DNA of 41,956 bases, taken from positions 1-41,956 of the IMG/VR virus record IMGVR_UViG_2718218133_000008. The stretch is one strand, 5' to 3'. The DNA comes from a virus. Taxonomy: Duplodnaviria; Heunggongvirae; Uroviricota; Caudoviricetes. The position numbers are program-made. Shown one piece after another: positions 39,001-41,956 of this stretch (the first letter of the stretch is position 1; each line of letters starts with the position of its first letter).

Positions 39001-41956
39001 AGAGGACTAACACATGACCACTTTAACCGACAAAGAACTGATTAAAGAAATCAAAGAGCGCATAGGCGGCCTGGACGTTCGAGACAATATTGAGCGCCGT
39101 GCTTATGAAATTGCACTGGCATCGCTGGAAGCAGATCCAGTTGCTTATATTTTCAAACATCCGGCCGGGAAATTATTCTGGGCTTTAACGGATGAAAGTA
39201 ATAAAGATCAATCGGACGTTATTCCTGTTTATGCCGCCCCTCCAGTACCAGTAGTACCTGCTGCATTACCTGAGAACGACGATGAGGACGGGCATGACAT
39301 TGATTATCTTGAGCCATCTGAAGTTTACTCGCTTGGGCGAACAGCTGGCTGGAACGCCTGCCGTGCTGCCATGCTTCATGGTGCCGAACCTGTAAGCCAA
39401 ACTTACAACTTGCCAGAATTAATCGAAGGCATGGAGGTTTCCATTGATGTAAGCACTTGTGATGCGGATTTAGGTAATCGCTATTTCGGTACCGTCACCG
39501 AGGCGTTAGAACTTGATACTGCCAAGAATGGTTACATCCTCCTGGTTCAGGACGCAGAGCCAAACTTCGATGTAAATGGCAACTCTCCGGTAACTCAGGA
39601 TGGTTGGATAAGCTGTAGTGAGCGAATGCCTGAAAAGGGCAAGAACGTGCTTATTTCGGTGAATTTCGATAGCTCTCTGGTTGAACCGCTAATATGCTCC
39701 GCACGCTATACCGGAAGCACCTTTCGGCGCGGAGATGCAACGATTAAGCCGGGTAATGGTATTGAGCAAGCAACTCACTGGATGCCGCTACCGGAACCGC
39801 CGCAGGAGGTGAAGTGATGAACAACTTAATGATCGACCTTGAGACGATGGGGAAAAATAAGGATGCACCGATCGTTTCCATTGGCGCGGTGTTCTTCACT
39901 CCAGAAACCGGAGACATCGGACAAGAATTCTATACGGTTGTTAGCCTGGAAAGTGCTATGGGGCAAGGAGCTACACCTGACGGCGATACCATCCTGTGGT
40001 GGTTGAAACAAAGCCCTGAAGCACGAGCTGCAATCTGTATTGATGATACTTTGTCGATCAGCGATGCTCTCTCAGAACTAAATCATTTCATTAACCGGCA
40101 CGCAGACAATACGAAATATTTAAAAGTCTGGGGTAACGGAGCCACCTTCGACAACGTAATTTTACGTGGAGCTTATGAGCGAGCAGGACAAATCTGCCCG
40201 TGGGCATACTGGAATGACCACGATGTACGCACGATCGTTACGCTTGGGCGTTCCATCGGATTCGACCCCAAAATGGACATGCCTTTCGATGGCGAACGGC
40301 ACAACGCCCTGGCCGATGCCCGTCATCAGGCAAAATATGTTTCCGCTATCTGGCAGAAATTAATTCCTGCCACCAGCACAGAATTATAATTTTCCCGGGT
40401 GCAGCCGGTTTTGATGGAGAAAATTATGAACACCTTGTTTTTACTGATGGCTGAATTCAATACCCCAAACATTGAACTCTCAGCAGTTAGCCAAAAGTAC
40501 TTTGGTATGAGTCCAGCCACGGCAGAAGCAAAAGCAAACGCTTGTAAGTTGCCCGTTCCAACATATCGCATCGGCACATCACAAAAAGCAAAACGTTGCA
40601 TCAATATTCAGGATCTTGCGGAATACATAGACAAAAGGCGAGAAGAAGGACGTATCGAGTGGGAACAGGTCAGAACAGTCAAACAGAAGGACAAAGAACA
40701 TCACTAAAGAAAAAACCCGCCTGAAGGCGGGTTTTCAAAAAGCACCAGCTATGATCATGCTGCTTTGCGACGACGAAGCTTACCCTGCTGCTCTTTACCA
40801 GAGACAGTAGCGTGAGTGAACGCATTAGGAGCAGCCTTCATCAGAACTTCAACAGCAGCACCCATACCTGCGAATGCTTTCATTGTGTCGAACTTAACCT
40901 GTGGCTTGGTTGCTTTTTGATCTTCCATAGAAAACTCCTGAAGTTATACCGAAACAATTCCTGTTGTTTACTCATCATCAATAGATGATACGCAATATTT
41001 ATTTTTAAATTTAAGGTTCTTTGGCGTAACTTCATCAGAGATATCAAAACCGTCCAGAATTCTATTGAATGTAGCTTCTGGCATATCATCATGAACAGAA
41101 ATCTCACCCGATCGCTGCTTTCTAACCATGTTATCCACTCGCCAAATTATAGCTTCAGCGTAAACAACATAACTTGGATGCTTGATAAAGCGATGATCAC
41201 CAGAATTCAAGACGCAAGACGGATCGTGGGGGACACCATCCTTGATACTAGAAATATTAACAACTAAAACACAATAACAATCGTTAACGGGGTAATAAAC
41301 AGGATCATTACAAATCACATGAAGATGATTGCATGGCCCAGTTGGGGCAAGCACAGTTCCTTTCCTGTATGGCTGATAATCCGTCATGATAATTGCAAAG
41401 AAAATTCCTTAAGTTTCTGAGATTCTTCCATTTTGCCAATTATGCGATTAGCCTCATCCTCGCTTTTACCCTCACTGATCAGCATTTCTTTCAGGTCTAT
41501 AGGCTTACGAGAATTGCCAGGATCGTGCCACTCTGGACAAACGCTTTCTAAATGCGTCATATTTGCGAGATCAAATCGGTTCATATGCCCATACCGAGAA
41601 TAGATTTCATCTAAAATCCGGATATCCGCACGACTCAATTCATCAAAGACCTCGTCTGCATCCATTTCCCTCGGATCTGAACGCAACGATACATTATGCC
41701 CGTTCGTCTCTATCAAGTTGTACCAGTAGTCACCAATGCCTTCAGCCTTACCGCGAATCAAGTTCAGCGTATTCGACATGACTGGTCCAAATTTCATAGA
41801 GTAAAGGCTATCTTCGCCGATCATCCTGCCATGCTTCAAAATCGACTGGCGGTTAGACAGATAGAGCAACTTCATCAATTTCAGATATGCCATGCGCCCA
41901 CCTCGCTTAAGAAGTAGGTATGCAGCCATTTGAGCTACTTTTTCTTCGCAAAACAT

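What the first reader, a model, noticed from the sequence alone, without database searches (positions are those of the whole stretch)
40755..41956. Panacea (DUF4065) antitoxin-like gene coupled to an unrecognised 139-aa partner: candidate toxin-antitoxin or abortive-infection module
Seen in sequence: a three-gene minus-strand operon between the excisionase-like gene and the window edge, AT-richer than the neighbouring early-operon genes. Gene 1 has the DUF4065/Panacea signature. Gene 2 starts with ATGA overlapping the stop of gene 1, is Cys/His-rich and matches no family I know. Gene 3 is a 57-aa ORF with a strong ribosome-binding site, followed by a bidirectional terminator. Established knowledge: Panacea-domain proteins (PanA, SocA) neutralise many unrelated toxin domains encoded next to them. 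Inference: the 139-aa protein is a new PanT-type toxin or effector; the role of the 57-aa protein is unknown.
Basis: partly seen in the sequence, partly recalled or inferred. Interest (0 to 1): 0.85.

Follow-up and report, generated by a model that had tools for sequence, protein, structure and literature searches.

The report
Prophage PanA–PanT toxin–antitoxin pair (known family)
At the edge of an E. coli prophage sits a two-gene toxin–antitoxin module: a Panacea-domain antitoxin plus a MazF-fold toxin from an already described family (PanT cluster T6), so it is a sound call but not a new kind of system.

Summary
The sequence features are real. Gene 1 (41384-41956, minus strand, 190 aa) is a Panacea/DUF4065 protein (Pfam PF13274, E 2e-19). 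Gene 2 (40968-41387, 139 aa) overlaps its stop codon by ATGA. Gene 3 (57 aa) and a terminator hairpin follow.

A Panacea gene lies directly upstream in all 23 genome loci that held enough upstream DNA, across three proteobacterial classes.

Gene 3 is not part of the module. It occurs in 562 E. coli genomes against 208 for the pair, and is absent beside the pair in other lineages.

The pair is cargo in a variable slot next to the dusA attachment site. Toxicity, RNase activity and any phage-defence role are untested for this copy.

Verdict: a new member of a known kind, of low to moderate interest.

The parts
41384..41956 (-). panA: 190-aa stand-alone Panacea-domain antitoxin. The window ends on its start codon.
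   Evidence: Pfam PF13274 at E 2.2e-19, residues 27-137. RefSeq annotates the same 573-bp CDS as 'Panacea domain-containing protein'. Forty homologues start at the same MF(C/S)EEK. AF2 model has pLDDT 93, a compact alpha/beta core and a long C-terminal helix at residues 166-189.
41780..41788 (-). Codons for G57-P58-V59 of PanA, the 'GPV' signature of the Panacea domain.
   Evidence: G57 and P58 are invariant and V59 is at least 90% conserved among 40 homologues. G57 is invariant and P58 at least 90% conserved in the 18 locus-derived sequences. Kurata et al. describe the GPV motif as the Panacea signature and as critical for neutralisation.
41384..41387 (-). ATGA overlap of the panA stop codon with the panT start codon (translational coupling).
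   Evidence: Read directly from the sequence. Overlaps of 4 or 1 bases, or gaps of at most about 30 bases, recur at the same junction in the other loci. These match the -4 and -1 values listed for T6 pairs in Kurata Dataset S1.
40968..41387 (-). panT: 139-aa toxin candidate of cluster T6 with a MazF/PemK/CcdB-like fold.
41193..41327 (-). Conserved core of PanT, from H21 to H65: H21-L-H23, D55, C58, G63, H65. Candidate active or binding site.
   Evidence: Among 27 close homologues, H21, H23, C26, P29, D55, C58, G63, H65 and F67 are invariant. Among 66 members at 27-50% identity, H21 stays invariant and L22, D55, C58, G63, H65, F67, S72 and Y76 stay at 90% or more. Their role is inferred, not tested.
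40755..40928 (-). 57-aa basic ORF (PHROG 2741). Probably the last gene of the same transcript, but prophage backbone rather than part of the PanAT module.
   Evidence: PHROG 2741 at E 8e-36, function unknown. Present in 562 of 5426 E. coli genomes against 208 for the pair. Present in phage mEp460 and in O157:H7 prophages without the pair. Absent next to the pair outside this E. coli prophage lineage. Backbone homology ends at its ribosome-binding site, about 40938-40941.
40711..40736 (-). Intrinsic terminator hairpin ending the minus-strand unit, placed between the convergent 57-aa gene and the xis-like gene.
   Evidence: Eleven pairs (six G-C) followed by a T-run, flagged on the minus strand. 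RNA fold -20.4 kcal/mol, z -3.1.

Best explanation
Window 40968-41956 (minus strand) is a two-gene type II toxin-antitoxin module of the PanAT class. It sits as cargo at the attachment-site end of a dusA-integrated lambdoid prophage of E. coli.

panA encodes a stand-alone Panacea-domain antitoxin. panT is translationally coupled to it by an ATGA overlap. PanT encodes a 139-aa toxin of cluster T6 with a MazF/PemK/CcdB fold.

Most likely mechanism:
- PanT is a sequence-divergent MazF-like endoribonuclease that stops translation when free.
- PanA binds it directly and keeps it inactive.
- The pair is expressed from its own promoter beside the att site, convergent with the phage early-left genes.
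- Loss or inactivation of PanA frees the toxin. Possible triggers are proteolysis, loss of the prophage, or a cue from an infecting phage.

What is shown here: Panacea membership, the MazF-like fold, membership of T6, strict pairing across three proteobacterial classes, and purifying selection.

What comes from the literature on a homologue (P. moraviensis): toxicity, neutralisation, complex formation and inhibition of translation.

What is inferred: RNase chemistry, catalytic residues (H21, D55, H65 are candidates), the promoter, and the biological role (prophage stabilisation and/or abortive infection).

The 57-aa downstream gene is a backbone gene that probably shares the transcript but is not part of the module.
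For: Membership of the two protein families:
- Panacea: Pfam E 2e-19. All 18 upstream partners from other loci also hit PF13274. The GPV motif is conserved.

Membership of cluster T6:
- The protein of locus L007 is exactly WP_101821906.1, which Kurata Dataset S1 lists as a T6 toxin paired with a PanA, order A|T, overlap -1. It is 55% identical to the window PanT.
- Pantoea septica LMG 5345 (L008) and Salinivibrio socompensis (P0298, 49% identity) are also species listed under T6.
- The tested T6 pair, from P. moraviensis, is scored 'TA', forms a complex in pull-down and inhibits 35S-methionine incorporation. HHpred assigned it to EndoA/PemK/MazF.
- A Pseudomonas pair (L113) has the same PanA N-terminus, MIFSEQKVAQ. 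Its PanT starts MPGNIV (MPGNIL in the P. moraviensis primers) and ends in a similar tail. That PanT is 43% identical to the window PanT (E 1e-32) and the PanA 42% identical (E 3e-33).

Pairing and selection:
- In 23 of 23 genome loci with enough upstream DNA, from Gamma-, Beta- and Alphaproteobacteria, a 183-195-aa Panacea ORF lies directly upstream. The flanking genes differ between loci.
- Two members at 28-30% identity show the same pairing, as do 16 phage contigs at 70-76% identity.
- PanA and PanT identities co-vary across 26 loci (Spearman 0.88).
- dN is 0.09-0.2 while dS is saturated. The one pair that gave an estimate had dN/dS 0.07.

Cargo slot:
- The pair is present in 208 of 5426 complete E. 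coli genomes, always on the chromosome.
- It lies between the xis-side backbone and the dusA fragment.
- A 177-aa gene replaces it in the same slot in other prophages.
Against: - No experiment exists for this E. coli copy. Kurata et al. found at least one predicted phage-borne E. coli PanT (cluster T1) to be non-toxic.
- No sequence-level link to MazF/PemK was obtained here. None of 66 family members hits any Pfam toxin model. A profile search of PDB sequences found nothing. hhalign against MazF sequences gave probabilities below 1%.
- The conserved residues (His, Asp, Cys, His) are not the Arg/Thr pair that I recall as catalytic in E. coli MazF. RNase chemistry is therefore an inference from the fold and from the translation-inhibition phenotype of a 43%-identical relative's close homologue.
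- The P. moraviensis toxin sequence itself was not available. The link rests on primer-derived termini and on cluster assignment.
- The PanA-PanT complex could not be modelled.
- The promoter is only a 9-of-12 consensus match and lies outside the window.
Confidence: 0.78

Rival explanations
1. The module's main role is phage defence. As a prophage cargo gene pair, PanAT aborts infection by other phages: the Panacea domain senses an infection cue and releases the MazF-like toxin. This rivals 'addiction/stabilisation' as the biological purpose. It does not rival the molecular mechanism.
For: The pair sits in a variable cargo slot at the prophage end, beside the att site, with its own terminator and lower GC content. 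At least 119 predicted viral contigs carry relatives. Ernits et al. [quoted passage not shown]
Against: None of the three proteins hits any PADLOC defence model. No paper was found that tests a PanAT pair of this type against phages. No phage-challenge data exist for this pair. Many TA pairs on prophages have no detected defence phenotype.
Confidence: 0.3
2. PanT acts like CcdB rather than MazF. It would poison DNA gyrase or bind another protein target instead of cleaving RNA.
Confidence: 0.08
3. Neutralisation is indirect, as in SocAB (type VI). PanA would be a protease adaptor that delivers PanT to ClpXP, rather than an inhibitor that binds and blocks it.
For: SocA is the founding Panacea protein. 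Kurata et al. note that the two modes need not be exclusive.
Confidence: 0.06
4. All three genes form one functional unit, with the 57-aa protein as a third component such as a regulator or chaperone.
For: It has the same strand and a 39-bp gap, with no terminator before it and a strong ribosome-binding site. Backbone homology stops at its ribosome-binding site, so it probably relies on upstream transcription.
Against: It is found in 562 genomes against 208 for the pair. It occurs with a different upstream gene or without the pair. It is missing next to the pair in Kosakonia, Pluralibacter and all other lineages.
Confidence: 0.07
5. The pair is not a working toxin-antitoxin system in E. coli. 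PanT would be non-toxic or have another role, and the pairing would reflect some other joint function.
For: Some predicted PanT proteins were non-toxic when tested, including a phage-borne E. coli T1 example. Ten NetFlax candidates also showed no toxicity.
Against: A member of the same cluster is a validated toxin. The fold is that of a classic toxin. Both genes are under strong purifying selection and strictly paired.
Confidence: 0.1

Closest known systems
PanAT cluster T6 (Kurata et al. 2022, PNAS 119:e2102212119), validated pair from Pseudomonas moraviensis: PanT WP_083201923.1 and PanA WP_083354365.1
   Same: Gene order is antitoxin then toxin, with overlapping or abutting genes. PanA is a stand-alone Panacea protein of about 185-190 aa with the same N-terminal motif, M(I)F(S/C)E(E/Q)KVAQ. 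The toxin is about 132-139 aa with no Pfam or CDD domain but a MazF/PemK-like fold. Relatives of the window toxin are listed by accession or by species under T6. Identity to a Pseudomonas homologue is 43% for PanT and 42% for PanA.
   Different: This copy is carried by an E. coli lambdoid prophage and was not in their data set, where the only E. coli entries belong to T1 and T3. It has not been tested. Its sequence differs at several positions that are conserved only among enterobacterial members, such as H23, C26 and G63-D64.
MazF/PemK(Kid)/EndoA endoribonuclease toxins of type II TA systems (Pfam PemK_toxin), and the related CcdB
   Different: No detectable sequence similarity. The antitoxin is a Panacea protein, not MazE, PemI or CcdA. 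PanT carries an insertion of about 25 residues (roughly 48-71) and two extra C-terminal helices. Its conserved residues are His, Asp and Cys rather than the Arg/Thr of MazF, which I recall from memory.
SocAB of Caulobacter crescentus (type VI TA; SocA is the founding Panacea protein)
   Same: The antitoxin carries the Panacea domain, Pfam family 'SocA_Panacea'.
   Different: It is not a SocA equivalog: 14.4 bits against a cut-off of 190. The toxin has a MazF-like fold, and nothing found here links it to SocB. Relatives neutralise by direct binding, whereas SocA works through proteolytic degradation of SocB.

Membership tests
Panacea / DUF4065 antitoxins (PanA) | Significant match to Pfam PF13274 SocA_Panacea | tested here: met
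   E 2.2e-19, 70.9 bits against a cut-off of 25.7, covering profile positions 1-109 of 113.
Panacea / DUF4065 antitoxins (PanA) | Conserved GPV signature motif | tested here: met
   G57-P58-V59 are present. G and P are invariant and V is at least 90% conserved in 40 homologues. The motif is described as the Panacea signature.
Panacea / DUF4065 antitoxins (PanA) | Encoded in a conserved two-gene locus (gap of at most 100 nt) with a toxin-like partner in several species | tested here: met
   23 of 23 genome loci with enough upstream DNA, in three proteobacterial classes, with overlaps of 4 or 1 bases or gaps of at most about 30 bases. Criteria as stated.
Panacea / DUF4065 antitoxins (PanA) | Neutralises the toxicity of the adjacent gene product and binds it | not testable with these tools
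   Shown only for the P. moraviensis homologue.
PanT cluster T6 (Kurata et al. 2022) | Sequence homology to listed T6 toxins | tested here: met
   55% identity to WP_101821906.1, an exact accession match through L007. 56% identity to the Pantoea septica LMG 5345 protein (L008) and 49% to the Salinivibrio socompensis protein (P0298).
PanT cluster T6 (Kurata et al. 2022) | Homology to the experimentally validated member, P. moraviensis WP_083201923.1 | tested here: inconclusive
A Pseudomonas sp. protein with a near-identical N-terminus and a similar C-terminus (MPGNIV...LRNNNL, against the primer-derived MPGNIL...IRQNNF) is 43% identical at E 1e-32. This is strong but indirect.
PanT cluster T6 (Kurata et al. 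2022) | Growth inhibition by blocking translation | not testable with these tools
   Needs an expression and metabolic-labelling experiment. Known only for the P. moraviensis member.
MazF/PemK/CcdB toxin superfamily | Characteristic fold (SH3-like beta barrel with a C-terminal helix) | tested here: met
   [not shown]
MazF/PemK/CcdB toxin superfamily | Match to the family's sequence profile (Pfam PemK_toxin or CcdB) | tested here: not met
   No such hit for the window protein or for any of 66 family members. Nothing in the PDB profile search. hhalign against MazF gave probabilities below 1%. Kurata et al. report an HHpred link for the T6 representative.
MazF/PemK/CcdB toxin superfamily | Catalytic residues placed as in MazF or Kid, and endoribonuclease activity | not testable with these tools
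The conserved H21, D55, C58 and H65 are candidates only.
SocAB type VI TA | SocA equivalog-level similarity | tested here: not met
   NCBIfam NF047745 scores 14.4 bits against a cut-off of 190. The partner has a MazF-like fold, and nothing found here links it to SocB.
Catalogued anti-phage defence systems (PADLOC-DB 2.0) | Match to any defence-system protein model | tested here: not met
   No hits for any of the three proteins at E up to 1.

The most novel reading that the evidence does not exclude
The most novel reading the evidence does not exclude has two parts. First, the T6 toxins would be a MazF-fold branch that has replaced the usual Arg/Thr chemistry with a His/Asp/Cys/His site (H21, D55, C58, H65). 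That could mean a different substrate or reaction from mRNA cleavage at MazF-type sites. Second, in this prophage the pair would work as an abortive-infection switch in which the Panacea domain senses an incoming phage.
Probability: 0.2. Interest if true: 0.55.

Novelty: new member of a known kind. Interest (0 to 1): 0.27.

Why it matters
This result names two genes that are currently labelled 'Panacea domain-containing protein' and 'hypothetical protein', the latter with a start codon called too far downstream. They occur in about 4% of complete E. coli genomes, including O157:H7 and O103 strains. The result also ties them to a tested toxin-antitoxin family.

It shows that the end of dusA-integrated lambdoid prophages next to the attachment site is a swap-in cargo slot. 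That makes it a convenient natural system for testing two open questions: whether PanAT pairs defend lysogens against other phages, and what the Panacea domain senses.

It does not reveal a new kind of system.

Tried and rejected
- Sequence searches of the 139-aa protein against Pfam, NCBIfam, PADLOC and PDB sequences found nothing meaningful. The ICMT and DapC hits are far below their cut-offs.
- A Pfam scan of 66 diverse family members gave no toxin family.
- A zinc-site reading of the His/Cys residues was dropped. H23 and C26 are conserved only among close relatives.
- The AlphaFold-database fold library was not available.
The scan was repeated with A1.
- The P. moraviensis PanT was searched for among the fetched proteins by its primer-derived termini and was not found. 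A Pseudomonas sp. homologue was recovered through its PanA instead.
- NetFlax supplements were searched for T6 accessions, with no hits in the stored text.
- Rfam gave only sub-threshold, terminator-like matches.
- A literature search found no study of this E. coli pair or of PanAT T6 in phage defence.
- The three-gene-module idea was rejected on distribution data.
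Full report
**1. What is in the sequence**

The last 1.2 kb of the window carries three minus-strand ORFs: 41384-41956 (190 aa), 40968-41387 (139 aa) and 40755-40928 (57 aa).
- The second ORF starts with an ATG that overlaps the TGA of the first, giving ATGA at 41384-41387.
- The third ORF follows after 39 bp and has AGGAG six bases before its ATG.
- An 11-bp GC-rich hairpin with a T-run lies at 40736-40711. 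It folds at -20.4 kcal/mol, z -3.1.
- This hairpin separates the unit from the convergent plus-strand xis-like gene. That gene matches the Pfam PrtN family and the PHROG 'excisionase' family.
- GC content is 0.39-0.43 over the pair against 0.44-0.51 in the neighbours.

One caveat is that the window stops exactly on the start codon of the first gene. In the complete prophage, E. coli MS6198 (100% identical), the ribosome-binding site (GAGG) lies upstream. So does a weak promoter-like site, TTGACC-17-TAAACT. Many IMG/VR prophage contigs start at this same ATG or at the ATG of the second gene. The window edge is thus an artefact of prophage trimming at gene boundaries.

**2. Gene 1 is a Panacea protein**

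- Pfam SocA_Panacea matches at E 2.2e-19.
- The GPV signature (G57-P58-V59) is conserved in 40 homologues.
- The AlphaFold model is confident (pLDDT 93). It shows a compact alpha/beta core and a long C-terminal helix at residues 166-189.
- It has no extra N-terminal domain, as Kurata et al. record for the PanA proteins of cluster T6 ('noNTD').
- It is not a SocA equivalog: 14.4 bits against a cut-off of 190.

**3. Gene 2 is not an unknown fold**

No Pfam, NCBIfam, PADLOC or PDB-sequence match exists. The family alignment nonetheless gave a confident model (pLDDT 89.4).
- Foldseek independently returns MazF-type endoribonucleases for its top 37 hits, with probability about 1.0.
- At sequence level the link could not be reproduced. 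I therefore file the protein as 'MazF/PemK/CcdB fold', not as a member of the Pfam PemK family.

**4. The family is already described**

Kurata et al. 2022 (PMC8832971) grouped the partners of Panacea proteins into 88 toxin clusters.
- Their Dataset S1 lists, under cluster T6, the toxin WP_101821906.1 of 'Yersiniaceae bacterium 2016Iso4', with order A|T and overlap -1.
- That accession is exactly the protein encoded in my locus L007, Chimaeribacter coloradensis 2016-Iso4. It is 55% identical to the window protein.
- Pantoea septica LMG 5345 (L008, overlap -4) and Salinivibrio socompensis (P0298) are also species listed under T6. Pluralibacter and Proteus appear both in T6 and among my hits, though as different species.
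- The tested T6 representative is P. moraviensis PanT with its PanA. It is scored 'TA' (toxic and neutralised), forms a complex in pull-down and specifically inhibits 35S-methionine incorporation. HHpred assigned it to EndoA/PemK/MazF RNases.
- I could not obtain that sequence. Its PanA N-terminus (MIFSEQKVAQ) and the toxin termini encoded in the cloning primers (MPGNIL...IRQNNF) led me to a Pseudomonas sp. pair. That toxin reads MPGNIV...LRNNNL and its PanA has the identical N-terminus.
- The Pseudomonas toxin is 43% identical to the window PanT (E 1e-32). The PanA proteins are 42% identical (E 3e-33).

**5. The pairing is strict and old**

- A scan of one genome per species found 26 loci in Gamma-, Beta- and Alphaproteobacteria.
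- In all 23 with enough upstream DNA, a 183-195-aa ORF lies directly upstream, overlapping or within about 30 bases. The flanking genes differ between loci.
- All 18 of those ORFs that were tested hit PF13274.
- Two members at 28-30% identity, taken from metagenomes, show the same arrangement.
- A full-library profile search finds 2,700 cluster representatives at E up to 1e-3; the 150 best listed are mostly about 130 aa.
- PanA and PanT identities co-vary across loci (Spearman 0.88, n = 26).
- Non-synonymous divergence is small while synonymous sites are saturated. The one pair that could be estimated gave dN/dS 0.07.
- Conservation of residues 1-11 supports the 139-aa start over the RefSeq 128-aa call.

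**6. The 57-aa gene is not part of the module**

- It matches PHROG 2741, function unknown.
- It occurs in 562 of 5,426 complete E. coli genomes. The pair occurs in 208.
- In O157:H7 PV15-279 and in strain EC09, the same xis-side backbone and 57-aa gene are followed by a different 177-aa hypothetical gene, in the same slot before the dusA fragment.
- Phage mEp460 has the 57-aa gene without the pair.
- Conversely, the pair lacks the 57-aa gene in Kosakonia, Pluralibacter and every other lineage.
- Backbone homology ends at the gene's ribosome-binding site. The gene probably rides on the transcript of whatever cargo lies upstream. In that narrow transcriptional sense only, the 'three-gene operon' may hold.

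**7. How it most likely works**

- Shown here: a Panacea antitoxin gene translationally coupled to a MazF-fold toxin gene of cluster T6, carried as exchangeable cargo at the att-proximal end of a dusA-integrated lambdoid prophage.
- From the literature on a homologue: direct binding, neutralisation and arrest of translation.
- Inferred: PanT is an endoribonuclease. The invariant H21 and the near-invariant D55, C58 and H65 would form its active or binding site. PanA loss or a sensed cue would release it.

Rivals considered:
- A defence (abortive-infection) role is plausible from the location, but untested and not in PADLOC.
- A CcdB-like target is less likely given the labelling data on the homologue.
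- SocA-type proteolytic neutralisation fails the equivalog test.
- A non-toxic pair is possible, since some predicted PanT proteins were non-toxic.

**8. Novelty and verdict**

The partner, however, belongs to a published and experimentally sampled PanT cluster, and its fold is that of the classic MazF/CcdB toxins. This specific E. coli prophage copy was not in the published table, where the only E. coli entries are in clusters T1 and T3, and I found no study of it. The finding is therefore a new member of a known kind.

Its value is practical. It gives better annotation for a gene pair found in about 4% of complete E. coli genomes. It also offers a natural cargo-slot system for testing whether PanAT pairs act in phage defence.

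Noticed in passing
L029 3886-4419 (-), L030 3886-4419 (-); slot equivalent to window 40968-41956: In other dusA-integrated prophages (O157:H7 PV15-279, strain EC09) a 177-aa hypothetical protein (WP_000956557.1) replaces the PanAT pair. It sits between the same 57-aa gene and the dusA fragment and has no Pfam match. The slot therefore behaves as a variable cargo site.
   Followed up: partly
window 41355-41387 (first 11 codons of panT); L001 6669-7055: RefSeq annotates the toxin as 128 aa from an internal GTG. The 139-aa form has a conserved N-terminus (M1, P6, G10) and the ATGA overlap, so the public start-codon call looks wrong.
   Followed up: yes
window 41956 (edge); L033-L095: The window ends exactly on the panA ATG. 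Dozens of IMG/VR prophage contigs start either at that ATG or at the panT ATG, in which case panA is cut off. Prophage-boundary trimming at gene edges removes the promoter, and sometimes the antitoxin gene, from such records.
   Followed up: yes
[not shown]
   Followed up: no
L113 744-2956: In Pseudomonas sp. TNT2022 the homologous PanAT pair lies about 700 bp from a Phd/ParE toxin-antitoxin pair and next to an integrase-like gene. Together they look like a small island of toxin-antitoxin genes.
   Followed up: no
L011 4417-5031, L012 2808-3425, L014 2068-2670: In three Methylococcaceae loci a roughly 200-aa ORF (MAINPK...HEYVDGQ(I/V)YAM...) lies immediately after the toxin gene in two cases and upstream in the third. 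It could be a lineage-specific accessory gene or a coincidence.
   Followed up: no
window 40399-40707 (+): The 'excisionase-like' gene beside the module matches both the Pfam PyocinActivator PrtN family (E 4e-23) and PHROG 1300 'excisionase' (E 8e-40). RefSeq names it a pyocin activator PrtN family protein.
   Followed up: no
cluster 1 of the protein collection: The 190-aa PanA and the 139-aa PanT were reported in the same 90%-identity cluster, along with members of 232, 169 and 128 aa. This looks like a clustering artefact, perhaps caused by read-through or fused gene calls across the ATGA overlap.
   Followed up: no
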